The notes: generated by a model not told the origin, from the sequence alone. Shown: positions 1 to 36,066, numbered from the stretch's first letter. The stretch is DNA of 64,000 nucleotides from an uncultured virus (IMG/VR IMGVR_UViG_3300032093_000079) (IMGVR_UViG_3300032093_000079), one strand, 5' to 3'. Made by a program: numbers and translations.

Positions 1-108
1 CACAGGTGTACTCTAAGCTTGGACGAGTTATTAGACCTAGTAAAGAAGAAGGGTCTTGAGAACCTGACTGATGTAGAACTGACGAGACTAAAAGAATTGT
101 CCCGATAG
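1..108 (+). CDS. 3' end of a hypothetical protein (truncated by window edge)
   Basis: Frame 1 reads ...LSLDELLDLVKKKGLENLTDVELTRLKELSR* to TAG at 106-108. Confidence 0.55.
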   Translation, partial: HRCTLSLDELLDLVKKKGLENLTDVELTRLKELSR

Positions 109-139
109 TTTAATAGTCATCAGTTTTTTAGTATTATAG
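109..139 (+). promoter_or_regulatory. Putative early/middle promoter (TTTAA-N~16-TAGTATTATAG)
   Basis: Same motif at 1305-1336; variants upstream of 2790 and, reversed (TATTATACTA), upstream of many minus-strand genes. Confidence 0.6.
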
Positions 140-167
140 TAAAGTCAAACCAATAAAATAAAAAAAA

Positions 168-1304
168 ATGATTGAAATCAAAGGAGGCAGAAAAGAACAG
201 GTAGTTCGTCAGTGGTTCAATGATACACATGATGGTATCGTGCCAAGAGCAAAGGTATTAGAACTCTTTCAAGAGTTCGAGGAGATGCCAAAGGACGAGG
301 ATATCTCGTACGGGCTATTCAATGGAGTGATTAAAAAGATCCAGGCTGAGGGTCACGGCGCAAGTTCAGTGCCAACATCAGAGTCAAGCGGGCCTCGCCT
401 AATTCACTCCGTAGTAGAGCCCAACATCATCAACGTTGAGGACATGGAGTTTCCAAACTTTGGACTCTTTAGGACGGGTAAAAAGATCGACGATCTCTTC
501 TCAGACCATGAGGAAGGCGGCGGGCTCTATGGCGGTACCGTAAACATCGTCATCGGCGAGTCAGGTGTCGGCAAGTCGACCGTGATGCTGGACCTCTTGG
601 CCTCAATCGTGGACCAGAATCCAGAGGCAAAGATACTCTACATCTCAAGCGAGATGACACGCAACGATATCATGTTCTATTACCGCAAGACGCCAGCCAT
701 CGGTAAGGTACCTACCCTACTCCTAATGGACTATGTAAAGAACGGTCAATTGGCCCAAGTCTTGGAGAAGAGTTTCAATGGCGAGCACGATGTAATCCTC
801 TTAGACTCCTACCAAGACGTGTTGGTAAAATTGAAAGAGGTGCACGGTTGGAAGTCAACTAAGGCAGAAAGCTGGTTGACTAACATGATGATCGACGCTG
901 CAGAAAAATGCGGCAACGCTGTCCTCGCAATCCAGCACATGACTAAAGGAGGACAGTATGTTGGTTCTACTTATCTTAAGCATGCAACCACCGCGATGTT
1001 AGAGATCAGGTTCGACTTGACTGGTCAGCGATACATCGAGTTCTCAAAGAACAGGCGAGGAGGTAGCGGCACTGGTAAGAGACTCTACTACAAGCTTGAC
1101 GAGACGGGCGCTGTGGTATACGATGTTGCCCGCTTCAACGAGACCGAGGAGATGCGTAACTTCGAGAACGTGGAAACCCTACGTCAGCAGGACCTGACCG
1201 CACAGTTTGAAAACATCTTCTTGGGCGGTAGTCGACACCTGGACGAGGACTCCGTAGAAGAGGCGGAAACCGATGAGGACCTAGTTAAAATAATTGAGGA
1301 ATAA
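168..1304 (+). CDS. RadA/Sms-like RecA-superfamily ATPase
   Basis: Walker A GESGVGKST, LYISSEM, Walker B VILLDSYQ, IQHMTKGGQYVGS, KNRRG resembling the RadA KNRFG motif. Confidence 0.8.
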   Translation: MIEIKGGRKEQVVRQWFNDTHDGIVPRAKVLELFQEFEEMPKDEDISYGLFNGVIKKIQAEGHGASSVPTSESSGPRLIHSVVEPNIINVEDMEFPNFGLFRTGKKIDDLFSDHEEGGGLYGGTVNIVIGESGVGKSTVMLDLLASIVDQNPEAKILYISSEMTRNDIMFYYRKTPAIGKVPTLLLMDYVKNGQLAQVLEKSFNGEHDVILLDSYQDVLVKLKEVHGWKSTKAESWLTNMMIDAAEKCGNAVLAIQHMTKGGQYVGSTYLKHATTAMLEIRFDLTGQRYIEFSKNRRGGSGTGKRLYYKLDETGAVVYDVARFNETEEMRNFENVETLRQQDLTAQFENIFLGGSRHLDEDSVEEAETDEDLVKIIEE

Positions 1305-1336
1305 TTTTAAACCTCATCGCATAAATAGTATTATAG
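1305..1336 (+). promoter_or_regulatory. Putative early/middle promoter
   Basis: TTTTAAA...TAGTATTATAG, -10-like block identical to 129-139. Confidence 0.6.
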
Positions 1337-1368
1337 TATCAGTCAAAACAACTTAAAAAAATTTAATT

Positions 1369-2544
1369 ATGAGAGAAGTAACAAATTCCCAGTTCAGCGC
1401 GATTCGCGAGACAATGACAACTAACGAGCATGCTACAAAGCAGGTGCCGATCTCGGCAATCAAGCTTACGGAGCAGTCGTTCCTAAAGAACCAGATCGAG
1501 ATCGGCGGCCAGCCGGTAAGGGTATCTAATGGGTTCTTTCTACGAATGGCAAGCATGCTAAAGATGAACGCATCCCTGACCAGAGAGTTTATCAAGAACG
1601 AAAACTCAAAGGTTGCCGCGGCAATGATGAATGCTCTAAACGAGTATCGTCGTTCACAAGGAGGCAAGGACGTGCTGATCATTGCCGACACCCAGACCAG
1701 AGAGGTGATCGACATCTGTGATCCCAAGCGATACCGACGCCTAACCAACGAGTCCCTATTCGACATGACCGAAAAGATCATGAACGAGCACCCGAACCTA
1801 ATCATCGAGACGATCGATGCCAGTCCAAGCGGAGGTAATACCTCAATCAACTTCCTAAACTCCGAGGAGGTGGGATTTCCAGGAGCGGGCAAGGACGAGT
1901 TCTTTAAGTTCGGCTTTTCAATCACACAGACTTCTAAGGACACGATAGTTGAAACATATAACACCCGATTGGTGTGCTCTAACGGGCTTCGAGTAAGCTT
2001 TGGAAGCGGCGCAATCGGCGGCAATCGAGACCTACACTTTGAAGAAAAGTTCAAGCTGGGCGGTACCGAGGCGGACGATATCCGTACCTTCCTCAACCGA
2101 GTGGATGCAATGAAGAAGGCGGGATTTATTCCTGGAGGATTTCAAAGCTCGCTCTCATCGGCGGTCAACACTAAAGCAAGCTTAGCTGAGGTTTCGAACG
2201 CGATGATGTTGGCCCAACGTAAGGTTAGGGAAGTCGATCCTCAGTTTAAGAAAAACTTTATTGACACAATCGAACGTAACTACTTCGAGGGTCACCGTGA
2301 CACCATGGCCCGAATCATCCAAAAGGGACAGGATCCATACAAATTGAACGACAAGCAGAAGAGCTTTATCAAGACCGGCATGTCGGTATGGGACGTGATC
2401 AACTCGCTTACCTACCTAGGTTCCAATAACTCAGGAATCGAGTTGGCTGACATGCACGAGTTAAAAGCACAGGCAGGAGACTTATTCGCTAAGGGAACGA
2501 ACGGAGGCTTCGACCTACAGTTCGCTCAGTACGCGCAACTATAA
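1369..2544 (+). CDS. DUF932-like phage protein
   Basis: 391 aa; RLVCSNG motif typical of the DUF932/LGT_TIGR03299 family. Confidence 0.55.
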   Translation: MREVTNSQFSAIRETMTTNEHATKQVPISAIKLTEQSFLKNQIEIGGQPVRVSNGFFLRMASMLKMNASLTREFIKNENSKVAAAMMNALNEYRRSQGGKDVLIIADTQTREVIDICDPKRYRRLTNESLFDMTEKIMNEHPNLIIETIDASPSGGNTSINFLNSEEVGFPGAGKDEFFKFGFSITQTSKDTIVETYNTRLVCSNGLRVSFGSGAIGGNRDLHFEEKFKLGGTEADDIRTFLNRVDAMKKAGFIPGGFQSSLSSAVNTKASLAEVSNAMMLAQRKVREVDPQFKKNFIDTIERNYFEGHRDTMARIIQKGQDPYKLNDKQKSFIKTGMSVWDVINSLTYLGSNNSGIELADMHELKAQAGDLFAKGTNGGFDLQFAQYAQL

Positions 2545-2561
2545 GTTGGTTTGACGACGAG

Positions 2562-2589
2562 AAAGGGAGCCGATAGGCTCCCTTTTTTT
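2562..2589 (+). terminator. Rho-independent terminator
   Basis: AAAGGGAGCC-GATA-GGCTCCCTTT followed by T-run. Confidence 0.85.
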
Positions 2590-2789
2590 GTGCCCTAATT
2601 TTACTCCGTAGTAATGGGTCTCTGGCTATCGCGCGTCGTCGTAACACGCCCGTGCACGGGAGCTGACCGGGTCTCTGGCTTCCCCTGCCCGCTGGGACCT
2701 CGAGGAGCCTGGTCTACCATGGAGCTCGAGGCCCAATCTAGAGAGGACATTTTTTAAAAACTTAAATACTATCAAGAGTATAATATAGT

Positions 2790-3284
2790 ATGGAAGACTC
2801 TCGGTTTATTTTTTATTATCTCCCTCATGCTATTAGAAAAGGCTATGTGAATAGTAAGGGAGATCAAATGATAGGCAAAGTAGGATTGACTCGCAAAAGT
2901 ATTCCAGCATGGAGACTGCTCGCTAATGAGAAAGCTTCAAATACAATAAAGGATTATGTGATTCTTGAAGAAGGGACAATGACTTTTAAAGAAGCTCTAG
3001 CAAGAGAACGTGAACTCCAAGAACAATATGATTGTCTAGATAATATGAATAATCCAGACAATAAGAGAAAAATGTCAGATCGTTTAAAAACAGTTGAGAG
3101 AAAAAACTGCGCGCACTGTGATTCAAGTTTTCCGATAACTCACATAAAACAACATGAAAGATCATGTGATTCAAACGCATCGGCAGTCAAGTATTCTCCT
3201 CCTAGAGTAGAGTGTAAATATTGTAATCTATCTTTTGCGAATACAAATATCGCAAGACACGAGAAACTATGTAAATCTAAATAA
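2790..3284 (+). CDS. GIY-YIG-like protein with two C-terminal C2HC zinc fingers (homing-endonuclease-like)
   Basis: FYY...KVGLT...ARERELQ N-terminus; CxxC-x11-HxxxC twice; AT-rich relative to flanks. Confidence 0.5.
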   Translation: MEDSRFIFYYLPHAIRKGYVNSKGDQMIGKVGLTRKSIPAWRLLANEKASNTIKDYVILEEGTMTFKEALARERELQEQYDCLDNMNNPDNKRKMSDRLKTVERKNCAHCDSSFPITHIKQHERSCDSNASAVKYSPPRVECKYCNLSFANTNIARHEKLCKSK

Positions 3285-3400
3285 CTACGAGAGGACGGGT
3301 TTCCCTTGGCGAGGCTTGGTCATCCTACCGGTAAGTTTCTATATAGACAAGAAGAGGGTCCCTTAGGAGGACCCTGCTAGACTGAAGAACTTCAGTACTG

Positions 3401-3547
3401 TCATCGACCTTGGCCGCGATAAGCTTTTACATAGTTCTTGCCTCGTTTAGAGACGCTACGTTTCGACTTAGCATGCACGCCTGGTCTCTTCTTCTTTGGG
3501 TTAGACACTCGACCAATGGTCACAGCGCCCGCCTTTTTAGCTGCCAT
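3401..3547 (-). CDS. Small highly basic protein (48 aa, ...KNYVKAYRGQGR)
   Basis: Translated by hand: MAAKKAGAVTIGRVSNPKKKRPGVHAKSKRSVSKRGKNYVKAYRGQGR; GATAAATAA motif upstream (3564-3572, minus). Confidence 0.7.
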   Translation of the reverse strand: MAAKKAGAVTIGRVSNPKKKRPGVHAKSKRSVSKRGKNYVKAYRGQGR

Positions 3548-3576
3548 ACTCCCCCGTTTTTTGTTATTTATCCGGG

Positions 3577-3921
3577 CTAGAAGTCTTTTAGTAATAGCTC
3601 TAGCGCGGCTTCTCCATTGAATGTTTTTACCGCACGCACATAGAGTGTGTCGTTCTTATTAGTGAAGTAGGCATACTCATAGTAGAAGGAGAAGTACCAC
3701 GCGGCGTCGCTGGCGTACTCCATACTACTCCAATAGAAATCATCTTTTATATTTGGTATTTTTGATTTATTTGGGTAAAGAATATTTTTAAACTCTTCAA
3801 TCGTAGGAAGTCTCCAACCGTCTCCTAACTCTTTAACTTCTATAATAGCTTCGTCTAAATTCATCTTACCAAGATCATAGGTCAATACCATTAAATCCTC
3901 TATTATTATTAAGTCTTCCAT
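3577..3921 (-). CDS. DUF1566 (Lcl C-terminal, CLec-fold) protein; probable DGR target
   Basis: GWRLPTIEE...YWSS...AWYFSF...YVRAV motifs. Confidence 0.8.
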   Translation of the reverse strand: MEDLIIIEDLMVLTYDLGKMNLDEAIIEVKELGDGWRLPTIEEFKNILYPNKSKIPNIKDDFYWSSMEYASDAAWYFSFYYEYAYFTNKNDTLYVRAVKTFNGEAALELLLKDF

Positions 3922-3932
3922 ATAGATATTTA

Positions 3933-4625
3933 TTACATGAGATCGCTAAGATCCCGCTGGCTAGGAGTCTCTGGCTGGTCTTCCCAATTAGGAGTAATCT
4001 TACCAGGATGCTCGCGTCTCTGCTTCTTCCTTGGTACGGGCAACTGATCTCCGCCTAGCTTATCTAGCCTGTCTACTCCGGCTTTAAGAAGAAGATTAGT
4101 CAAGTCCTTCTCCTGTTCCTGCTGATATTCTGGTACACTAATAGCACTGTTGATAACCACCACTTCAACCCCATAATATCGGAACCAGGCAGGAAATAGC
4201 TCCCAGCCTACTCGGGCCAGCCTGTCAGGAGTCTCTACTATAATTACCGACACCTTCTTCTTAATTACATCCTGTATTAGGTCATGCAGGCCGGGTCTCC
4301 AGTCTAGCGAGAAGTCAGTAGCGGGACACCAGTCGTCGTATAGCTTCTCTAGAGAGATACCCCTTTGCAGGCACCATGCTCGGATAGTCTGCTGCTGTCT
4401 CTGCATGAGGTGCCGGTCGGACTCCGTAGTCCCGGCTACCCTACAATAGGCTACTGCCCAGTTCTCCTTTACGAGTCTCTTACCAAGTAGAGCATAGACG
4501 TCGTCATCCCAGTAGATCTTACGGCCTTTGGCGTCTTCGCTATATCTGATTCGACCCTTCTTAGTCCACGCTTTTAGAGTGTTATAGCTACAGCTGAGCA
4601 CCTCCATTGCTTCCTTTGCCCACAT
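3933..4625 (-). CDS. IS607-type serine recombinase (MerR-like HTH + resolvase domain)
   Basis: N-terminal HTH (EAMEVLSCSYNTLKAW), AYCRV, RPGL..LI, IIVETPDRLARVG; likely start MWAKE at 4625 after GATAAATAA at 4642-4650. Confidence 0.8.
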   Translation of the reverse strand: MWAKEAMEVLSCSYNTLKAWTKKGRIRYSEDAKGRKIYWDDDVYALLGKRLVKENWAVAYCRVAGTTESDRHLMQRQQQTIRAWCLQRGISLEKLYDDWCPATDFSLDWRPGLHDLIQDVIKKKVSVIIVETPDRLARVGWELFPAWFRYYGVEVVVINSAISVPEYQQEQEKDLTNLLLKAGVDRLDKLGGDQLPVPRKKQRREHPGKITPNWEDQPETPSQRDLSDLM

Positions 4626-5078
4626 AATTCGCTTCTTTCGTTTATTTATCCCGACCAGGTACACCAGGAAGCTATCAGTTTTGGGCATAGTTGCCAGTAG
4701 GTACCCTTTCGCATCGGGTTGATAGCCAAGGTTGATAGCTTGGGGGTTTCCCGTTCGGGACTCCGTAGTAAGCGTAGGTTGCCCTGCCGACATTACTGCT
4801 CACTTAAGGACTATCGGGGTGCAGAGCTAAAGGGATATCGGGGTTGGGTAGACTGTCACCCTTGGCGGGTGGGATTGGTGTAGGTTTAGTGCTAGATTGG
4901 GGTCTCTGCTATCTATAGGATCATCCGTTCCTGGGTCTATGTTGGTAGTGTCTCCTGTCTAGAGACTCTTTCCAATATTTCTTTTTTCCCTGTCTCTAGG
5001 TATCTTAGTATCTAATTGCGGGACTCCGTAGTAAAGGGCTCGGTATCTAAATAAATATAACTAAAAGAATTCTATATT

Positions 5079-5618
5079 ATGAAGTACATTAAACTGTTTG
5101 AGACCTGGCAGGGTTTTAGTAAGAGTGAGGATGAAGAGGAGAAAGACTATCGTGTTTCTCTAGATAAGTTGCTTACTTGGGCAGTTGACCAGGATTGGAG
5201 CAGTGATTGGAGCTGGATGCCTAATATCTTAATGGTAAATGACGAGTTTCCTGATGAAGGGGAGTGTATAGGATACTTGGAACTTCTTAAGAAGAATCGT
5301 GAGGTAGAGATAGAGGTCTATTCTCAAATGATAGATGGACAGGTTGATAGTAGTTGGGTAATTGACGATACTGTATTTGATCTTATTACTTGGGAATGGC
5401 CGTTTGAGGATGCTGATTCTTTAGATGATTTGGAAAATGCGACTGTGCGGAAATTAGTTGATGAAATAGGCGAAGGTGGTCTTATAGAGATCGGCGCGAA
5501 TATCGTAGATCTTATCGACTTTGTAGACTGGTCAGGTGACCGTGGAGAAGACTTGACTACCCTGACGCCTATTGGTTTTAGGAACTGGTTTAGATTACAG
5601 CGAGGCGGAGCCAATTAG
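5079..5618 (+). CDS. Acidic hypothetical protein with CTS-like N-terminus
   Basis: Starts MKYIKLFETW. Confidence 0.65.
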   Translation: MKYIKLFETWQGFSKSEDEEEKDYRVSLDKLLTWAVDQDWSSDWSWMPNILMVNDEFPDEGECIGYLELLKKNREVEIEVYSQMIDGQVDSSWVIDDTVFDLITWEWPFEDADSLDDLENATVRKLVDEIGEGGLIEIGANIVDLIDFVDWSGDRGEDLTTLTPIGFRNWFRLQRGGAN

Positions 5619-5661
5619 TGCTGGACTCCGTAGTAAATAAATAACTAGAAAAAAGAGGCCC

Positions 5662-6315
5662 ATGTTAAAATCATTTGTTCAGTTCATTGCGGAATCCAGT
5701 AAAGAGCCGAACTCGTTTGAAGAAGCGTTAGATCGTGGAATTCCCGATTGGGTGATTGACTGGGTCTGGCAAGACCGTTCGATCGGTAAAGTAGGCAGCC
5801 TCGAAGACTATCGGGGTTGGGTAGAACATGCCTATGCAGATTATTTCGTGACTCATCATTATTCTCGGTCAGACGAGATATTGCGTGCTTCCATATCCAC
5901 GCCCACTAAGAGAGGCCAGGAAAATTTCAACAGCGCAGACGCTTTCTTTGTTTCTCCGAAACTGGAGATATCCGAGGACAAGCTTAATTTCTTTATCCTG
6001 GTCCCAAAGGGTCTCAACTTTCTCCTCACTGATTATAACTTTAGCAATGCTCCAGAGATCAAGGAGGGTTTTAAGTTCGATCCCACATTGGAGACGGACT
6101 TTCGGTTACAGTGGTTCTCCTGGATTGGGGACAGGTCTAGGGAGCTTGGTTACGATGCGATCGTGCCGGACGACGGTCGTTATGAGATCATAATAGTCAA
6201 TCCAGAATCCCTAATACCTATGGGTTCGCTAAGGGACCTTGATGGTTTTTTAGGATACTTGGAACGGGATGAGACTGGACTCCGTAGTGACAACAGCGTT
6301 AGTAAACTGGTCTAG
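5662..6315 (+). CDS. Putative ADP-ribosyltransferase-fold protein with CTS-like N-terminus
   Basis: MLKSFVQFIAES; ILR...FFVSP...GYDAIV...YEIIIVNP pattern resembles ART (R-S-E) domains. Confidence 0.45.
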   Translation: MLKSFVQFIAESSKEPNSFEEALDRGIPDWVIDWVWQDRSIGKVGSLEDYRGWVEHAYADYFVTHHYSRSDEILRASISTPTKRGQENFNSADAFFVSPKLEISEDKLNFFILVPKGLNFLLTDYNFSNAPEIKEGFKFDPTLETDFRLQWFSWIGDRSRELGYDAIVPDDGRYEIIIVNPESLIPMGSLRDLDGFLGYLERDETGLRSDNSVSKLV

Positions 6316-6343
6316 TTGAGGAGTACCTGTTCTGTGTAGTTAG

Positions 6344-6574
6344 TTATATGGGTTCCGTGTTTTGGAGAAAGTTGCCTAGTTCAGTAAAGTATTCTCGAGT
6401 GCCGCCTTCTACTCTAAACTTGACCTGTTTCTTGGAGTCGACATAGTATTTGGGTTCTCCGATAAGTATGAGTCGGATGTCGTGTTCAAACTCAAACTCG
6501 TGGTCGTCGACTCCAATGTAGGGCCAAGGCGAGCGCTTTGCGCAGAGTTTAAGGATTACGGTGTAGCGTTTCAT
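6344..6574 (-). CDS. Hypothetical protein
   Basis: 76-aa ORF with early-type promoter upstream (~6582-6610). Confidence 0.6.
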   Translation of the reverse strand: MKRYTVILKLCAKRSPWPYIGVDDHEFEFEHDIRLILIGEPKYYVDSKKQVKFRVEGGTREYFTELGNFLQNTEPI

Positions 6575-6665
6575 ATAGTGCTATTATACTAAATGGGTGT
6601 TCTACTTTAAAAAGATAAAAGCATATTGGATCTTACAGGAGTCGGGAGACTAGCCCAGTGTTGGA

Positions 6666-7241
6666 CTAGTCGTGACTCCAGTTTGGAGAGTCTTCAATAG
6701 TGTATGAGTCTACCTCATCGTTAAACTCGCTAATGATAGTAAGGATATCGTCTACTGTGTGTATTACTGTTTGGCCGTAATATGTCCAAGTTGCATCGTA
6801 CTGGTCCTCTTCATTACCATACTCTTCTTCAAAGTCGTCGTTAGCATAGCTTGCTCTTAGTTCAAGATAGGAGTCTCCGCCTAGGTAGATTACTACTGTG
6901 ACTGGTTCTGTCCAGAGCAGGAAGTATTGATAATTATTATAGTGTTGTTCTGGCAGGTTTACCATGTCTGAACTAAGGGTAAACTCAAGTGTATTGTAAG
7001 GAGTTGGTCTAAGTACGGGTTTTCCCCAGATATTGGGTTCGGCCAGGTGTCGATCTTCTAGCTCCTGTAGTAGACGAGCCACCCATCCTGCAGGGTCGAC
7101 TCTCTTTTTTGACCTTGCAAAATCGGTTCGGTCAATCATTCCCAAGTCAAATAGTCTCTGTATGTCGTCAGTGGTTTCCCGACCAGGAGTCTCTTCATTT
7201 TCATTTATCCATGCCTGAAATCCTTTAATCATAGTAAGCAT
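6666..7241 (-). CDS. Acidic hypothetical protein with CTS-like N-terminus
   Basis: MIKGFQAWINE; ATAAATAA upstream. Confidence 0.65.
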   Translation of the reverse strand: MLTMIKGFQAWINENEETPGRETTDDIQRLFDLGMIDRTDFARSKKRVDPAGWVARLLQELEDRHLAEPNIWGKPVLRPTPYNTLEFTLSSDMVNLPEQHYNNYQYFLLWTEPVTVVIYLGGDSYLELRASYANDDFEEEYGNEEDQYDATWTYYGQTVIHTVDDILTIISEFNDEVDSYTIEDSPNWSHD

Positions 7242-7351
7242 CTATTTTTTTTATTTATTTATTTGCCGAACCGACCTCCGTAGTAGATGGTTAGTTATAT
7301 TATACTAATTAGATGGGATCCTTTAAAATAAATAACTTAAAAAGAGAAGAG

Positions 7352-7960
7352 ATGTCATTTATTAATTGGGGCGGAGAGAGCCCAGAACAGCTTAGGCTAC
7401 GTAAGAGATTTGAGGAGGAACAGGCTTTATTTGAACAGGCAGTCCGTGCTTCTAGTGCGATGGCCAGTATCGGTGGTGTAGGCGGATCGAGGTTACAGGT
7501 TCCTTATTGGAAGACTGCTACCGATACTGCATGGCTCTATCCAAAATCTGACCTAGCAGAGGCTCTTGAGCTCACCAATGTTGAGTATACTAAGGTGGGC
7601 AATCGTTATGTTTTCGCGAACCTAGTCGACCTTGACCTGTTCTATTATGACGTGTGGTACCGGACAAGTATTTCGCAGCCAGTCAACAACACGAGCTATT
7701 CGTTGGCCGTTAACACCGAGCTTAAGGGATCCCATGACGAGGTGTATCTTGACCTGGCGAACGGTACTCGTATAATTACCTGGCAGCTGATGACACAATT
7801 GACTTCCCAGTCTAGCCTACCCAATGGTGGAGATTCCCCTGACGGGACCATTGGATACGGTGCAATCTATTCCGATGTAGACGGTGATGGTGTGCCTGGA
7901 CTGATCACTGATGTGGGGTCGGGTAATATCGATCCTCTTCGATTTGAGCAGATCGGTTAA
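7352..7960 (+). CDS. FINWG-module protein 1 (putative virion protein)
   Basis: Start MSFINWGGESPEQ shared with 18577 and 24120; ATAAATAA upstream. Confidence 0.7.
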   Translation: MSFINWGGESPEQLRLRKRFEEEQALFEQAVRASSAMASIGGVGGSRLQVPYWKTATDTAWLYPKSDLAEALELTNVEYTKVGNRYVFANLVDLDLFYYDVWYRTSISQPVNNTSYSLAVNTELKGSHDEVYLDLANGTRIITWQLMTQLTSQSSLPNGGDSPDGTIGYGAIYSDVDGDGVPGLITDVGSGNIDPLRFEQIG

Positions 7961-8026
7961 ATGGGCCGTACTGGTCTATATCCAGTCTACTCCGGGTCGG
8001 GTTTAAATAGGTCTTCTAGGTCCATT

Positions 8027-8863
8027 CTAATTGTGGTTTGGCATTAACTCACGAAGATAACATTTATCTTGCGAAAAGATTGGGGTTTCTTTATCAGCTT
8101 CCCATTTGTTTCTTGAGAATGTTTCGTTTAATCTAGGATCTACTTGGGAAGGATTTACTTGAACTGTTTGTCCAGATTGTAATTTCACATAAGTCTTTTC
8201 TACTTTACGGATAAGAGATCCTCGTTTTTCTCTTGGGGTAAAATCATTCCAATTGATTCCTTTTTCCAACATCAGCATGTCTTGCATTTCATTGGTTTTC
8301 TTTCCATGTAATTCCTTTGAGGAGAAGTAAGCTTGAGCAACAGAAGAAATAGAATTTCTTGTAGCATCTTGTTGTCTCCAAATAAAGTAATTAATCACTT
8401 CCTCTTGGTAAGGAATTTGAAATACTCGAGCATCGAACATTGCAAGTTTAGTTTCTTCCACTACGCTCATGATTTCGTAATCATGAAGTTCTTCCATTCT
8501 TCTTAGTGTTCTTAGTTGGTTAAACTTTGCAGTTGCCAATGAAGCAGCGATACTTGCCATTTTCTGCAAGTTACCATCAAACCAAGCATGTGTAGAAATG
8601 TCATCGTAATCAGTGATGAGAATTGAAATCTCATCTGATTGAACGTATCCAAATTTTGCACCTTGGATATTCTGACATAGGTACTCAGTTGTCTTGTTCA
8701 TGTCTTCCATTAACCCTTCATCGAATGGACGCTTAAGTCCTCGAGTATAAGTATGGAAAGCTTTTCCGTCGATGCGGATGATTGTGTTGGTGCGACGTGC
8801 CAACTTGTAACGTGTTCGGTCTTCGTAAAAGTCCTTCATTCTGTCGCCTAATTGATCGGTCAT
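8027..8863 (-). CDS. thg1: tRNA(His) guanylyltransferase Thg1-like protein
   Basis: RMKDFYE, IRIDGKAFH, YVQSDEISIL, FDARVF, WRQQDATRNSI motifs. Confidence 0.92.
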   Translation of the reverse strand: MTDQLGDRMKDFYEDRTRYKLARRTNTIIRIDGKAFHTYTRGLKRPFDEGLMEDMNKTTEYLCQNIQGAKFGYVQSDEISILITDYDDISTHAWFDGNLQKMASIAASLATAKFNQLRTLRRMEELHDYEIMSVVEETKLAMFDARVFQIPYQEEVINYFIWRQQDATRNSISSVAQAYFSSKELHGKKTNEMQDMLMLEKGINWNDFTPREKRGSLIRKVEKTYVKLQSGQTVQVNPSQVDPRLNETFSRNKWEADKETPIFSQDKCYLRELMPNHN

Positions 8864-8959
8864 TTTTATTTGTTTTTATTAATGATGATTTTTCATGGGT
8901 TTAGGTTTTTAATTATAAGTAAATGTAAAGATCTCTCGTGAAAAACTTAGACTGAAGCA

Positions 8960-9205
8960 TTACCACTTAATTATAATTTCATCTCTTCCAAATTCAACAC
9001 CCAGACATGCATCGTTCGTTATCCTAACTATTTTATCCATAGTGACCTCAACATTACAGCCACTAGAGTTAAAATAGTATTCATCGTAGTGTTTACGTCG
9101 AGTAAACGATGCTTCTGATTCCGGAAATATTAAGACGATGTCTCGCATTTCATCTCCGCCCACTACACCATACCTTGATTCAATTACTAATTTAAAGATT
9201 TTCAT
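8960..9205 (-). CDS. Hypothetical protein
   Basis: 81-aa ORF in minus-strand run. Confidence 0.55.
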   Translation of the reverse strand: MKIFKLVIESRYGVVGGDEMRDIVLIFPESEASFTRRKHYDEYYFNSSGCNVEVTMDKIVRITNDACLGVEFGRDEIIIKW

Positions 9206-9259
9206 ATTTCTTTTTTGAGTTATAAGTAAATATTACTAATTTTTCGATTAAGAAAAAAC

Positions 9260-9679
9260 TTATGCTAATTTATTTTCTTCGACAATCTCAACGAGTTTTT
9301 GGAGACAAGCAAGTTCTGCTTCTTCATGCTTATAATACAAATACTCAGACAAGACGTCTTCTCCAAATCCCTCAAGGAACTGATCTGACTCATACTCTTT
9401 TATGGTAAAAGCAAACTTAGGTTCCATTGTCTTATCTACGTTTATTTCGCAGAATAAGTTGTAGTTATCTCTAAACCATCTAAATGCTTGTGAGAAGGTT
9501 GGACGGGAAACACATAAGTCAGACTTACCATTCCAATCCTTTGAATCACTAGGTTTTACTTCCAAGTAATGATCATAATTATTACCAGTATCTCCTGTAT
9601 AGATGTACATGTAACATGGCAAATTGAATCCTAATGTTTTAAGCTTGACTGCTAATTCATATGATACAAAATCTTTCAT
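9260..9679 (-). CDS. Hypothetical protein, paralogue of 9684-10112
   Basis: FVSYELAVKLK.LGF...QAFRWFR...EEA. Confidence 0.7.
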   Translation of the reverse strand: MKDFVSYELAVKLKTLGFNLPCYMYIYTGDTGNNYDHYLEVKPSDSKDWNGKSDLCVSRPTFSQAFRWFRDNYNLFCEINVDKTMEPKFAFTIKEYESDQFLEGFGEDVLSEYLYYKHEEAELACLQKLVEIVEENKLA

Positions 9680-9683
9680 TGTT

Positions 9684-10112
9684 CTATTTCTTTCGTTCTA
9701 AAAGTTCAATAATAATTTCAATTGCTCTTTTTTGTGCCTCTTCATAGGTTTCAAAATCCTCATCATCTCTGTAATCAACATAATCCAATTTTCCAGATTC
9801 GTGTAAATAATCAATCGATAATCCAAAAGGCTTATTCTTACTTAAGCTGTGATATGAATCTATATTAACGTGAAAATTCTTCTCTCTAAACCACCTAAAC
9901 GCTTGTTGCCAAACAGGGATAGGTAACGACTCAACGCTGCGATCAATAGTACAACCAGGATATGCGCAATGTACATTAGGTAATTGACATCCTCCAGGCT
10001 GTGCCTGATTTTCACAAATCTTTTTAACTGCCTCATACCTAAAGCATCTTTCATCAAACACAAGTCCTTTCATTCTTAAAGCCAGCTCATAAGGTATAAA
10101 TTCTTTTTCCAT
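9684..10112 (-). CDS. Hypothetical protein, paralogue of 9260-9679
   Basis: FIPYELALRMK.LVF...QAFRWFR...YEEA. Confidence 0.7.
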   Translation of the reverse strand: MEKEFIPYELALRMKGLVFDERCFRYEAVKKICENQAQPGGCQLPNVHCAYPGCTIDRSVESLPIPVWQQAFRWFREKNFHVNIDSYHSLSKNKPFGLSIDYLHESGKLDYVDYRDDEDFETYEEAQKRAIEIIIELLERKK

Positions 10113-13005: not shown

Positions 13006-13266
13006 TTAATCAGTTTTGCTTTCATCTCGGGTAATCATTTTAATTTTTATAGTAGGCACCTGTATGCGCTCTCCATCACAGGTTTCTATGGTGCTCATTC
13101 CGTTATCACGAGAGACTACATTAGTAGATTTGATCAAAGTTCCATCATCCAATGTGACCTGTTCATCACAGACCTTACTATCTTCAATAGCAAGATACAT
13201 TATTCCGCCATATATTAACCCAGTTATTACTACAACTAGGATTATTGAACTAAAGTTTCTTATCAT
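13006..13266 (-). CDS. Small membrane-anchored protein
   Basis: N-terminal TM helix; overlaps NAMPT stop. Confidence 0.55.
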   Translation of the reverse strand: MIRNFSSIILVVVITGLIYGGIMYLAIEDSKVCDEQVTLDDGTLIKSTNVVSRDNGMSTIETCDGERIQVPTIKIKMITRDESKTD

Positions 13267-14755
13267 CTTTTAAACGAGCTCTAATTTCAGTTAAAGTTGA
13301 AAATACACCAAATTCACCATCTTCATAAATGGTTTGGAGTGAACTAACTTCTTCACCTTCCCAAGTACAACGATCAACTAAAACATATTTACCATCATGA
13401 TTGTGAACACTTAATAAACCTGTTGCAGATTTCTTTGTACCATCATCAGTAATCGGATCCTTAAAGATTTCTCTACCAACACCATTTACCTCAACATAAG
13501 TTGCTTTCATTGCGAAACCAAATGTATCTCTGGTATTGTATTGATATGTGAATGATCCAATACCTAACACTACGTTTGTTGATGCAAACCCTTTTGCTTC
13601 TAAACGCTTACAGATTTCGTTTGCTCTGTCAATCGTGATTGAGTCACCATAGATAGCTCCGATGTGTGAATCAAGAACTTTGTAACCTTGTTCATTGATA
13701 GTTCCACCGAATACATCCCAAAGTAATTCAATTACTCCCTTTGCGTCAGGCGTGTCATCCGTAGATTCGATATAAAATGATGTGCCTTTTCCTACATATT
13801 CACCATGTTTTGTAAATGTATTACCACAAAGAATATCAACGGGATCTCCTGAGTCAGGGCGAATAACTAACTTACCGTCACGAGACATGATCTCTTCTTT
13901 CAAAGTAACTACGTGTTCTGTACACACTTTAAATAAATCCCAAGTATCAGATACAACTGAAAGGATTCCGGTAGGATATGTCTTCAACAATCTGCGGAAT
14001 GTCTCAACTTCGTCCTCTTTTCCACCTGCACACATAACTGAGTGTTCAGTGGCAGGAACTGATCCGCAAAAGAAACCTTCTTCACCATAGTATTTACGAG
14101 CACCATAGATTGTTGGTAATGAATCGGTGCCCCAGAATGATGTTAAGTGGCCCAAGCCAGAACTAATTACCGCTTCTACTGAGTCCATTCCTCTCATTGA
14201 GAAGTCATGACCTTGCCAGTCAATGAATGAAGCATTGCCCTTATCTGTCTTTAACATCCACTCGGTCAATACTTTTCTGTACTGATGAGCAATTGTTGCT
14301 GATGTCATTGGTTTCCACAATAGGTTTGAAAGGATCGTTTCCAAGTAATTTGTTATCCAATAGAAATCAGGATGCGTGTTATAGATCGTAAGTACCGGAA
14401 CTTTAATCGGTGCCTTGGTTCCTTCAGGTAGAGATTTAACATGGATCGGCAAGTGACCCAAGTCGTGTAGCTTTTCAAAGTGAGAAACGTCATATTCTGT
14501 TCCCAAATACATTGACAATTCTTGTTTCATTTCACGACACACATCATCTTTTGGTTTATCAAAGAAATCTTTTTGAAACATCTCGTGAAGCTGAATCATG
14601 ACCATCTGTGTTCCAAACACTACTACTTCGTCACATCCTTTCGGTGCGTACTTGTTAGATCGTGGTGTAAAGTTTGAATAGACTAGAGTAGTTCCTTCTG
14701 GATACTGTCTATTATGCGATGTTTTATAACCATCAGTTAATAATAATGGATTCAT
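13250..14755 (-). CDS. nadV: Nicotinamide phosphoribosyltransferase-like (NAMPT/Namat)
   Basis: LLTDGYKTSH..QYP, HDFSMRG, SVPATEHSVM, SVVSDTWD, VIRPDSGDP, IYGDSIT, RDTFGFAMKAT, KDPITD.G.KKSA.G. Confidence 0.93.
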   Translation of the reverse strand: MNPLLLTDGYKTSHNRQYPEGTTLVYSNFTPRSNKYAPKGCDEVVVFGTQMVMIQLHEMFQKDFFDKPKDDVCREMKQELSMYLGTEYDVSHFEKLHDLGHLPIHVKSLPEGTKAPIKVPVLTIYNTHPDFYWITNYLETILSNLLWKPMTSATIAHQYRKVLTEWMLKTDKGNASFIDWQGHDFSMRGMDSVEAVISSGLGHLTSFWGTDSLPTIYGARKYYGEEGFFCGSVPATEHSVMCAGGKEDEVETFRRLLKTYPTGILSVVSDTWDLFKVCTEHVVTLKEEIMSRDGKLVIRPDSGDPVDILCGNTFTKHGEYVGKGTSFYIESTDDTPDAKGVIELLWDVFGGTINEQGYKVLDSHIGAIYGDSITIDRANEICKRLEAKGFASTNVVLGIGSFTYQYNTRDTFGFAMKATYVEVNGVGREIFKDPITDDGTKKSATGLLSVHNHDGKYVLVDRCTWEGEEVSSLQTIYEDGEFGVFSTLTEIRARLKDDKKL

Positions 14756-35106: not shown

Positions 35107-36066
35107 ATGGAAAAAATTAGAATACTGTCACTAGACGGAGGAGGTCTTCGTGGAATAATTCCCCTCTTGATATTAAAGGAGATTGAAAAGACCCAAGGTA
35201 AACTCATCCATGAGCTTTTTGATGTCATTGCTGGAACCTCGACTGGTGGAATAATAGCCTGCGGATTGACCTATACGAAAGACGGAAAAAAGCCAGCAGT
35301 TAGCCTAGACCAGTTAATATCCCTATATACTGACAAGGGAACTGAGATATTTCCATATAAGAGAAACATATTTTCAAAAGCAATAACTGGAATAAACTCG
35401 ATATTTAATCCAAAGTTTTCTCCTGATGGATTAGACAGGCTATTGGGTGAATATTTTTCAGATTCTACACTAAAGGATACTTTAAAACCCATCATTGTAA
35501 GTTCGTATGACATTAAAAACAACGAGGTAGTAATGTTTAAAAGCAGGCTAGCTAGCGCTGGACCTGAATATAACGCTAAGTTAAAAGAAATATGTAGAGC
35601 AACTTCTGCTGCTCCCACATATCTTCCTTCATACGAGATGGATTTTAAAGCTAAGAGTCGTCTATTAGTAGACGGCGGAGTGTACATTAATAATCCAGCG
35701 ATGGCAGCAGTAGCTGACGTCTTACGTAGCCGACCAGACGTTGATATAAGCAATATCGAGTGTCTTTCACTAGGTACTGGAATATATTCAGAAAGTTTAG
35801 ATGAAAAAACAACTGGTTGGGGAGCAATAAACTGGATAAAGCCGATCACCTCTATCATGATGCAAGCATCAGCAAAAGCGGTCACATACGAGTGTGATGA
35901 GATATTGAAAAAACACCTACGTTTTCAAGTGTCAATCGACGATGAAAAAAAGAGCGACATGGCTGATTCTAGACCAGCAACCTATAAATATTTGATAGAA
36001 AGAGTATATTCACAGATACTAACTAATCCTGACGAGATGGAAAAATTACAAAAGTTTTTTAATTAA
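35107..36066 (+). CDS. Patatin-like phospholipase (CapV-like)
   Basis: ILSLDGGGLRG, AGTSTGG, ATSAAPTY, LVDGGVYINNP, LSLGTG. Confidence 0.93.
   Translation: MEKIRILSLDGGGLRGIIPLLILKEIEKTQGKLIHELFDVIAGTSTGGIIACGLTYTKDGKKPAVSLDQLISLYTDKGTEIFPYKRNIFSKAITGINSIFNPKFSPDGLDRLLGEYFSDSTLKDTLKPIIVSSYDIKNNEVVMFKSRLASAGPEYNAKLKEICRATSAAPTYLPSYEMDFKAKSRLLVDGGVYINNPAMAAVADVLRSRPDVDISNIECLSLGTGIYSESLDEKTTGWGAINWIKPITSIMMQASAKAVTYECDEILKKHLRFQVSIDDEKKSDMADSRPATYKYLIERVYSQILTNPDEMEKLQKFFN

What the first reader, a model, noticed from the sequence alone, without database searches (positions are those of the whole stretch)
406..7284. Polar cluster of a 10-bp DNA motif (ACTCCGTAGT) confined to the first 7.3 kb
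Seen: seven exact copies (406, 2603, 4421, 4760, 5023, 5625, 6279) and two one-mismatch copies (1249, 7275), all on the + strand, several extended to GGACTCCGTAGTAA. They lie in intergenic DNA and inside genes on both strands, so the signal is at DNA level. Density peaks at 4.4-5.6 kb. I saw no copies in the remaining ~57 kb or on the minus strand. The region also looks more GC-rich than the rest. Inference: oriented protein-binding sites marking a packaging/terminus region, replication origin, partition site or Chi/KOPS-like signal.
Basis: partly seen in the sequence, partly recalled or inferred. Interest (0 to 1): 0.78.

Follow-up and report, generated by a model that had tools for sequence, protein, structure and literature searches.

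The report
Polar DNA-site array beside dead transposase
A 10-base DNA word repeated in one direction at the start of this window is a real, conserved set of probable protein-binding sites in a family of giant uncultured T4-like phages, most likely read by a neighbouring former transposase that has lost its DNA-cutting residue.

Summary
ACTCCGTAGT occurs 7 times exactly and twice with one mismatch, all on the + strand at 406-7284; 0 of 100 shuffles reached 9. This is the right-hand third of a larger array. Related phage records carry 10-16 copies in a single 8-25 kb stretch and none elsewhere, including two complete ~271-kb genomes.

The array always accompanies a conserved gene set: a sigma factor, a RadA-like ATPase, an unknown 391-aa protein and an IS607-type serine recombinase without its catalytic serine.

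Copies sit in intergenic DNA and in variable protein linkers, sense and antisense. They have no partner element and form no hairpin. One lineage has every copy flipped with its genes unchanged, and two are mixed. This argues against a promoter or an RNA signal.

The one lineage without the recombinase relic has also lost the array.

Best reading: binding sites of the dead transposase, by analogy with the 9-bp direct repeats that IS607 TnpA binds. Binding is untested.

Two earlier notes from this scan reached the same reading on other genomes.

The parts
406..415 (+). Exact site inside the RadA-like ATPase gene, in its hypervariable linker (codon 80, read as HSVV).
   Evidence: A site lies in this linker in 11 of 13 lineages. 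It is flipped in L236, where it reads TTES.
1249..1258 (+). One-mismatch site ACTCCGTAGA near the 3' end of the ATPase gene.
   Evidence: The same A-ending variant sits at the matching place in G002 (83136), L237 (9422) and L233 (10802).
2603..2612 (+). Exact site just after the terminator-like hairpin and T run that follow the 391-aa gene.
   Evidence: The alignment includes the G002 84530 and G004 45202 copies.
4421..4430 (+). Exact site antisense inside the recombinase-relic gene. It encodes TTES directly after the position of the lost catalytic serine.
   Evidence: +195 from the ATG in the window clade.
4760..4769 (+). Exact site 135 nt upstream of the relic's ATG, in non-coding DNA.
   Evidence: The N-terminal extension of the long ORF carries stops in L228.
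5023..5032 (+). Exact intergenic site 56 nt before the ATG of the 179-aa ORF (5079-5618).
5625..5634 (+). Exact intergenic site 37 nt before the ATG of the 217-aa ORF (5662-6315).
6279..6288 (+). Exact site in the 3' end of the 217-aa ORF.
7275..7284 (+). One-mismatch site CCTCCGTAGT, intergenic, 38 nt before the ATG of the 215-aa ORF (7313-7960).
3936..4625 (-). IS607-TnpA-type protein with an N-terminal HTH_17/MerR-like domain and a serine-recombinase core whose nucleophile Ser is replaced by Ala. Proposed reader of the sites.
   Evidence: Resolvase 1.7e-12, HTH_17 3.9e-5; phrog_6620 5e-23; RVS of 3lhk aligns with RVA.
168..1304 (+). RadA/Sms-like RecA-fold ATPase with a small three-helix N-terminal domain and a disordered linker. 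Rival reader or partner.
   Evidence: AAA_25; RadA 5lkm and 8rxc, E about 4e-8; model.
1369..2544 (+). Conserved 391-aa protein of unknown fold, always between the ATPase and the relic.
   Evidence: Searches gave no clear structural match.

Best explanation
The 10-mer is the core of a roughly 14-bp DNA site, KK-ACTCC(G/C)TAGT-MM. It serves as a multi-copy binding site for a phage-encoded protein. The most likely reader is the catalytically dead IS607-TnpA-type protein encoded at 3936-4625 (-).

Proposed mechanism, all of it inferred:
1. The relic appears to be made from a T4-late-like promoter.
2. Its N-terminal HTH recognises one site per subunit.
3. Binding nucleates at the dense group of sites around its own gene.
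4. As IS607 TnpA dimers do when they pair transposon ends, it bridges or coats the 10-16 mostly co-oriented sites scattered over the early-gene and sigma/ATPase block.
5. This loops or silences that block late in infection.

Shown here: the site set, its confinement, its conservation, its selection at DNA level, the loss of the serine, and the co-loss in one lineage. Binding, bridging and the physiological effect are inferred.
For: 1. DNA-level selection. Among 99 non-redundant instances only the 10-mer and 2-4 flanking bases carry information. The ATPase linker is otherwise unconserved, yet it keeps the word in 11 of 13 lineages. Its amino acids change with the word variant: SVV with G, SLV with C, TTES when flipped.

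2. Confinement.
- G007 (270,962 bp, 100% complete): 10 of 10 copies at 255,208-263,395.
- G009 (271,290 bp, 100% complete): 10 of 10 copies in 8.2 kb.
- G001 (shares 95% of the window's sampled words): 7 of 7 copies in its last 5 kb, none in the other 120 kb.
- Reversed-word controls gave 0-4 matches.

3. The word is the commonest or near-commonest 10-mer in most of 28 loci fetched with the relic as query.

4. Link to the relic.
- Every locus that reaches far enough holds the relic 0.3-1.4 kb after the 391-aa gene.
- Local site density peaks at the relic gene. Sites lie at -372, -133 and +195 from its ATG in the window clade. In distant clades there are 2-5 tandem copies at a 57-58 bp period upstream, plus a site at +140.

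5. Family precedent. [quoted passage not shown]

6. Natural knock-out. L299 keeps the sigma, ATPase and 391-aa genes. It has no relic in 15.1 kb and only 1 exact and 1 one-mismatch copy. Its ATPase linker still reads SVV, but the DNA word has decayed.

7. Against a promoter or RNA role: there is no partner element and no hairpin covariation. L236 has 12 of 12 copies flipped while gene order and strands are unchanged.
Against: - No binding data exist.
- Co-occurrence cannot separate the relic from the ATPase, the 391-aa protein or sigma in the other lineages, because all are always present together.
- The co-loss rests on one lineage. Its contig ends 2.7 kb after the 391-aa gene.
- Known IS607 motifs lie within about 60-80 bp of an element end at 10-11 bp spacing. 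Here spacing is 57-58 bp or hundreds to thousands of bp.
- Helix 2 of the ATPase N-domain tracks the G/C variant (KVLDLF with G, TVQQLY with C, including L293). This favours the ATPase as reader, though it may reflect a single evolutionary event.
- Simple binding does not explain why orientation is so uniform (202 versus 23 copies in 27 lineages) yet can flip.
- One lineage (L287/L244) has a Ser at the aligned nucleophile position.
- An unrelated 327-kb phage (G003) carries 20 copies of the same word as a ribosome-binding region, so the word alone is not diagnostic.
Confidence: 0.5

Rival explanations
1. The sites are read by the three-helix N-terminal domain of the RadA-like ATPase. They act as oriented loading or guiding sites for a ring translocase or helicase (KOPS/FtsK-like), or as iterons for an initiator-helicase.
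For: - Strong co-orientation.
- The ATPase is RecA-fold and RadA-like, with a confident small helical N-domain.
- A site sits inside its own gene in 11 of 13 lineages.
- N-domain helix 2 covaries with the G/C variant.
- Tandem 57-58 bp arrays resemble iterons.
Against: - L299 keeps an intact ATPase but has lost the array.
- Density peaks at the relic gene, not at the ATPase gene.
- Orientation does not converge on a focus.
- Mixed and flipped lineages exist.
- A complete relative shows no GC-skew inflection.
- The N-domain was not shown to be a DNA-binding fold.
Confidence: 0.17
2. The word is a transcription signal: a single-element promoter for one of the phage's sigma-70-family factors, or an upstream activator or antitermination site of the early cassettes.
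For: - 51 of 103 sites are intergenic, although non-coding DNA is only 9-26% of the cluster span by my crude ORF calls.
- In G002 and G004 many copies lie between a terminator hairpin and an early-promoter cassette.
- Four window copies lie 37-56 nt before + strand ATGs.
- A sigma gene lies inside the array.
Against: - No second element at fixed spacing in 99 instances.
- Distance to the promoter cassette varies from 4 to 27 nt and more.
- Sites split 27 sense to 25 antisense within genes.
- In L236 all copies are flipped while all genes keep their strand. This includes the copy about 34 nt before the relic's ATG.
- Copies are maintained inside coding linkers.
Confidence: 0.1
3. The word has no reader of its own. 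It is a passenger of PeSL-like terminator/promoter cassettes that spread by duplication and homologous recombination in a hyperplastic early region.
For: - G002 and G004 share 60-130-nt intergenic cassettes, some holding the word, between unrelated small ORFs.
- There are 27 and 32 early-promoter cassettes per array.
- PeSLs are described as composite promoter/terminator cassettes that mediate modular shuffling in T4-like phages (abstracts of PMC2839356 and PMC4122927).
Against: - Only about 5 of 27 G002 cassettes hold the word.
- The word stays exact where its flanks share under 60% identity.
- It sits in coding linkers and inside the relic gene.
- It persists between lineages whose ATPases are only about 50% identical, with a coordinated G-to-C change.
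Confidence: 0.05
4. The sites are strand-specific targets of a DNA-processing activity: a nicking site, a Chi-like nuclease-attenuating signal near a packaging end, or a polar fork barrier.
For: - Strand uniformity within genomes.
- Confinement to about 3-9% of the genome.
- Three weak contig joints, and contig ends in two runs, abut copies.
Against: - No nuclease or nickase was identified in the block.
- The joints have 27-29-nt sides, which the tool warns are unreliable.
- No read-terminus data are available.
- Mixed-orientation lineages exist.
Confidence: 0.06

Closest known systems
IS607-family TnpA and its subterminal binding motifs (IS1535, IS607, ISC1926; PMC6188088)
   Same: - Same protein architecture: an N-terminal MerR/HTH_17-type DNA-binding domain followed by a serine-recombinase core.
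- The sites are 9-10 bp, multi-copy and mostly in direct repeat.
- They are densest next to the gene.
   Different: - The nucleophile serine is absent in 16 of 17 lineages.
- No TnpB-family hit appeared among the neighbouring ORFs I scanned.
- Sites spread over 8-25 kb at 57-58 bp or kb spacing, not 10-11 bp within about 60-80 bp of an element end.
- The gene is a fixed resident of a phage lineage.
PeSLs (promoter-early stem-loop cassettes) of T4-like phages (PMC2839356, PMC4122927; abstracts read)
   Same: - A hyperplastic block of small early ORFs.
- Each ORF is flanked by repeated sigma-70-like promoter and terminator cassettes.
- Cassettes are shared between otherwise unrelated ORFs.
   Different: - The 10-mer is a separate, much rarer element.
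- It also occurs in coding DNA and beyond the cassette block.
- It is conserved far beyond the cassette sequence.
Region-confined or polar chromosomal words: matS/MatP, KOPS/FtsK, Chi (recalled, no call)
   Same: A short word confined to, or oriented within, a chromosomal domain and read by a dedicated protein.
   Different: - matS is palindromic.
- KOPS and Chi are genome-wide, and their skew switches at the origin or at dif.
- Here a single block holds all copies and there is no switch point.
Plasmid and phage iterons (recalled, no call)
   Same: Tandem direct repeats in a GC-rich non-coding stretch next to a replication- or recombination-type ATPase.
   Different: - The period is 57-58 bp.
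- Most copies are dispersed over many kb and lie inside genes.
- There is no skew signal.

Membership tests
IS607-family TnpA / end-motif system | N-terminal MerR-type HTH followed by a serine-recombinase catalytic domain | tested here: met
   HTH_17 3.9e-5, MerR_1 6e-4, Resolvase 1.7e-12. IS607-family catalytic-domain structures 3lhk, 3lhf, 3ilx and 6dgc matched.
IS607-family TnpA / end-motif system | Catalytic serine nucleophile (RVS) | tested here: not met
   RVS of 3lhk aligns with RVA; 16 of 17 lineages have A, P, G or N at this position. L287 has S.
IS607-family TnpA / end-motif system | Several 9-10-bp directly repeated motifs at about 10-11 bp spacing within about 60-80 bp of an element end | tested here: not met
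   direct repeats cluster at the gene, but at a 57-58 bp period or at 240-330 bp, and continue for kilobases. No element ends were identified.
IS607-family TnpA / end-motif system | Accompanying tnpB gene | tested here: not met
   No TnpB-family Pfam hit among the 16, 26 and 31 neighbouring ORFs scanned.
IS607-family TnpA / end-motif system | The protein binds the motif | not testable with these tools
   Needs EMSA, footprinting or protein-DNA co-folding.
PeSL cassettes | Composite sigma-70-like promoter plus stem-loop terminator, repeated in a hyperplastic region | tested here: met
   By sequence only. Searches show a terminator hairpin followed by GTCTCY ... TTGTCA/TTGTAC-N17-18-TATATTTAC ... 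ATG, in 27 copies in G002 and 32 in G004.
PeSL cassettes | The 10-mer is an integral part of the cassette | tested here: not met
   About 5 of 27 G002 cassettes hold it. Copies also lie in coding linkers.
Sigma-dependent promoter | A second element at fixed spacing, and fixed orientation toward the transcribed gene | tested here: not met
   no information beyond +/-4 nt; flipped and mixed lineages with unchanged gene strands.
KOPS/Chi-type polar words | Genome-wide distribution with strand bias that switches at a focus | tested here: not met
   all copies lie in one 5-25 kb block, with none in the remaining 120-260 kb.
Origin iterons | Tandem repeats at an origin marked by a skew shift or an AT-rich unwinding element | tested here: inconclusive
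   Tandem 57-58 bp arrays exist in distant clades. No cumulative GC-skew inflection appears in G007. Skew is a weak guide in phages.
pac/cos packaging site | Physical DNA ends at or near the sites | not testable with these tools
   the only raw-read run laid 1 read. The other runs are contigs.

The most novel reading that the evidence does not exclude
The dead transposase and its co-oriented site array form a dedicated synapsis device. Relic dimers would pair the same block on two genome copies in register, as IS607 TnpA pairs transposon ends in parallel. They would hand the paired DNA to the adjacent RadA-like branch-migration ATPase. This would give these roughly 270-kb phages a fixed hotspot that seeds recombination-dependent replication or drives cassette exchange in the hyperplastic early region.
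Probability: 0.1. Interest if true: 0.85.

Novelty: new variant of a known kind. Interest (0 to 1): 0.66.

Why it matters
If the reading holds, a transposase has been turned into a site-specific DNA-binding protein with its own set of 10-16 sites. The sites are kept at fixed places, even inside protein linkers, across a deep lineage of uncultured freshwater jumbo phages. That would be a clear case of transposase domestication in a virus of bacteria. It would also give a way into how such large phages organise or switch off a whole genome block.

The site set is exact and easy to assay. The natural variants provide ready-made controls for binding tests: the G-to-C change, the flipped and mixed orientations, and the lineage that has lost the array.

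I found no paper on it. A search for the word itself returned only unrelated primers and nucleosome sequences. Searches on IS607 domestication found nothing on phages.

Tried and rejected
- The window's whole genome is not held. Megablast of 1-9000 against GenBank phages found nothing.
- There are no cultured relatives. The ATPase's best match in GenBank phages is 31% identity in an uncultured huge phage. The portal's best match there is 31-39%, to huge uncultured phages and Lak phages.
- Rfam found no match in window 1-10000 at E <= 0.1.
- Hairpin idea rejected: positions -1 and +10 do not covary.
- Two-element promoter rejected: no information outside the site.
- Origin by GC skew: no inflection in G007.
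- Fold of the 391-aa protein: Foldseek best E 0.012, VIA-align best Z 7.8, both at noise level.
- G003, a 327-kb phage with 20 copies, first looked like a relative. It has no match to the window's portal or ATPase, nor to the relic profile. There the reverse complement of the word is the Shine-Dalgarno part of a promoter/UTR cassette on the other strand. I treat it as a coincidence.
- Expression: no RNA holder was listed.
- Packaging ends: the raw-read run laid 1 read.
- The contig joints and contig ends next to copies have 27-29-nt sides. I do not count them as evidence.
- A search for close relatives of the array-less lineage L299 found none. Its whole contig could not be searched.
- L300 first looked array-less but carries ACACCGTAGT four times, three of them in a duplicated cassette. 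I leave it unclassified.
- Integron-like cassette recombination by the recombinase was considered and dropped once the serine was found missing.


Full report
**Observation**

ACTCCGTAGT occurs exactly at 406, 2603, 4421, 4760, 5023, 5625 and 6279. One-mismatch copies lie at 1249 and 7275. All are on the + strand, and no other copy at up to 1 mismatch exists on either strand of the 64-kb window. Shuffles gave 2.46 +/- 1.55 matches, and 0 of 100 reached 9. By my arithmetic, placing eight further copies by chance in the same 11% of the window has odds of about 3e-8, and eight further copies on the same strand about 0.004. The first 8 kb has GC of 0.43-0.475, against 0.34-0.41 beyond.

**What the window is**

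It is part of a large uncultured T4-like phage. It encodes a T4-type portal, a family B DNA polymerase, NAMPT and a Thg1-like enzyme. The portal is only 31-39% identical to its best matches in GenBank phages, which are huge uncultured phages and Lak phages.

Genes under the cluster:
- 168-1304 (+): a RecA-fold ATPase. Its family profile matches RadA/Sms structures at E about 4e-8. Its SKNRRGG stretch resembles the RadA KNRFG motif, which I recall rather than tested.
- 1369-2544 (+): a conserved 391-aa protein with no recognisable fold.
- 3936-4625 (-): an IS607-TnpA-type protein.
- Several ORFs of unknown function.

**The cluster is larger than the window shows**

G001 shares 95% of the window's sampled words. 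It has 7 copies at up to 1 mismatch in its last 5 kb and none in its other 120 kb. G002, whose ATPase is 95% identical, has 15 exact copies, all on one strand, over 66.6-88.7 kb. Window position 1 corresponds to about 81.9 kb in G002, so eight copies lie left of the window.

That left part is a block of small + strand ORFs. Each is preceded by a repeated cassette: GTCTCY, a TTGTCA/TTGTAC box, then TATATTTAC 17-18 nt later, a conserved leader and the ATG. There are 27 such cassettes in G002 and 32 in G004. In that block the 10-mer usually lies between a terminator hairpin and the cassette. This resembles the PeSL cassettes of T4-like phages (abstracts of PMC2839356 and PMC4122927). The 10-mer, however, is a rarer and separate element.

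**Distribution in whole genomes and in relatives**

Two complete relatives carry the variant ACTCCCTAGT ten times each. All copies are on one strand within 8.2 kb, and there are none elsewhere. These are G007 (270,962 bp) and G009 (271,290 bp). G008 (253 kb) has 12 copies in 11 kb.

Three searches gave 68 loci:
- with the ATPase as query;
- with a profile of the relic as query;
- with the ATPase profile as query, against metagenome contigs.

I grouped these, together with the window, G002 and G004, into 34 non-redundant lineages. Of the 27 lineages with at least 4 exact copies:
- 22 have every copy on the ATPase strand;
- 2 have one stray copy (13/1 and 11/1);
- 1 has all 12 copies on the other strand (L236, in G010, which has 16 of 16);
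- 2 are mixed (L301 2/6, L298 3/3).

The totals are 202 copies against 23. The word is the commonest or near-commonest 10-mer in most of the 28 loci. G and C variants coexist in some lineages (L291-L293, L305).

**Anatomy of the site**

Across 99 non-redundant instances the information lies in the 10-mer and in weak flanks, K K before and M M after. Nothing beyond +/-4 nt exceeds 0.2 bits, so there is no partner box. Flanking positions do not covary, so it is not a hairpin. The word is a near-palindrome: its reverse complement differs at 2 of 10 positions. Flipping a site therefore needs two substitutions.

By crude ORF calls, 51 of 103 sites are intergenic, 27 are sense and 25 antisense.

**Evidence for selection on the DNA itself**

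The ATPase has a disordered, hypervariable linker. In 11 of 13 lineages this linker holds the word. It reads xSVV with the G variant, xSLV with the C variant, and TTES where the word is flipped. A second copy lies inside the relic gene, and another lies 25-135 nt before its ATG in several clades. At that last position the copy is flipped in L236. In L236 the order and strands of the sigma, ATPase, 391-aa and relic genes match all other lineages. A promoter or an RNA signal would not survive such a flip.

**The conserved company**

Every locus that extends far enough has four genes in the same arrangement:
- a sigma-70-family gene 3-5 kb upstream;
- the ATPase;
- the 391-aa gene;
- the relic on the opposite strand, 0.3-1.4 kb downstream.

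The relic aligns with IS607-family catalytic domains, but the nucleophile (RVS in 3lhk) is RVA in the window. Of 17 lineages, 16 have A, P, G or N at this position and one has S. The DRLAR motif is kept. The long ORF 3933-4793 overstates the gene, because its N-terminal extension carries stops in L228. The likely start is the ATG at 4625, preceded by GATAAATAAA. That box resembles the T4 late promoter TATAAATA, which I recall rather than tested.

Two earlier notes from this scan, on other genomes, reported the same serine-less relic beside a one-directional word array. I took the missing serine as a lead and checked it here.

**Why the relic is the preferred reader**

- IS607 TnpA binds four 9-bp direct repeats through its N-terminal domain, about 10 bp per unit. 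It pairs two DNAs in a complex that needs no catalysis (PMC6188088, passages read).
- Site density is highest around the relic gene. In distant clades up to five copies stand in tandem at a 57-58 bp period just upstream of it.
- L299 keeps sigma, the ATPase and the 391-aa gene. It has no relic in 15.1 kb and only one exact and one one-mismatch copy. Its ATPase linker still encodes SVV, but the DNA word has decayed.

**What weighs against this**

- The co-loss is a single lineage on a contig that ends 2.7 kb after the 391-aa gene.
- The spacing is unlike that of known IS607 ends.
- Helix 2 of the ATPase N-domain covaries with the G/C variant.
- No binding has been measured.
- Why orientation is so uniform, yet reversible, remains unexplained.

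**What could not be decided**

- A complete relative shows no GC-skew inflection at the block.
- Packaging ends could not be examined.
- No RNA run holds the phage.
- An unrelated 327-kb phage (G003) has the same word 20 times as part of a ribosome-binding cassette on the other strand. I read this as coincidence, and as a warning that the word alone identifies nothing.

**Verdict**

This is a real, conserved, DNA-level site array tied to a domesticated IS607-type protein. The proposed effect, bridging or silencing the early and regulatory block late in infection, is inference.

Noticed in passing
G002 63.4-81.5 kb (L092, L093), G004 22.5-42.2 kb (L226, L227); window 8928 and 9235 (- strand): A repeated early-promoter-like cassette: GTCTCY, then a TTGTCA/TTGTAC box, then TATATTTAC with a conserved leader before the ATG. 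It precedes almost every small ORF (27 and 32 copies), PeSL-like. Two copies drive - strand genes just right of the cluster in the window.
   Followed up: partly
L224/L225 (G003 77.6-100.2 kb): An unrelated 327-kb phage has 20 copies of the same 10-mer. There its reverse complement is the GGAG ribosome-binding region 7-8 nt before the ATG of - strand genes. It sits in a roughly 75-nt cassette with a TTGACA box and a stem whose two arms covary between copies.
   Followed up: partly
L245 2128-3126, 6399-7160, 20100-20699; L093 1667-2386: These phages encode several sigma-70-family factors: three within 21 kb in the distant clade and one inside the array in G002. In the distant clade one copy of the word lies inside sigma region 2.
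   Followed up: partly
L245 14294-14384 and 14459-14584: Two tRNA-model hits of unusual length (91 and 126 nt; 30.9 and 37.2 bits) lie just beyond the GC-rich tandem-site region. They may be tRNA genes with inserts.
   Followed up: no
window 2613-2790: A GC-rich non-coding stretch after the 2603 site holds two copies of GGGTCTCTGG around a structured-looking segment. It is conserved in G002 and G004. Rfam found no match.
   Followed up: partly
window 6667-7328, 4433-7362, 1931-2599: Contigs of public DNA runs show three weak joints (27-29-nt sides), each abutting a copy of the word. One replaces the 191-aa - strand gene with a stretch that has part of the word at the junction. Contigs from two runs also end at 415. 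This may reflect strain mosaic boundaries at the sites.
   Followed up: no
L300 1142, 2033, 3171, 4304: One lineage carries ACACCGTAGT four times on one strand and no canonical copy. Three of the four lie in a duplicated cassette. This may be a further variant of the word.
   Followed up: partly
window 8027-8863 (-), 13250-14755 (-), 35107-36066 (+): The phage carries a Thg1-like tRNA-His guanylyltransferase, a NAMPT-type phosphoribosyltransferase and a patatin-like phospholipase.
   Followed up: no
window 3577-3921 (-); L093 9159-9872 (-): Small Lcl_C-domain proteins lie between the 391-aa gene and the relic: one copy in the window and two in G002. This interval differs in content between close relatives.
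   Followed up: no
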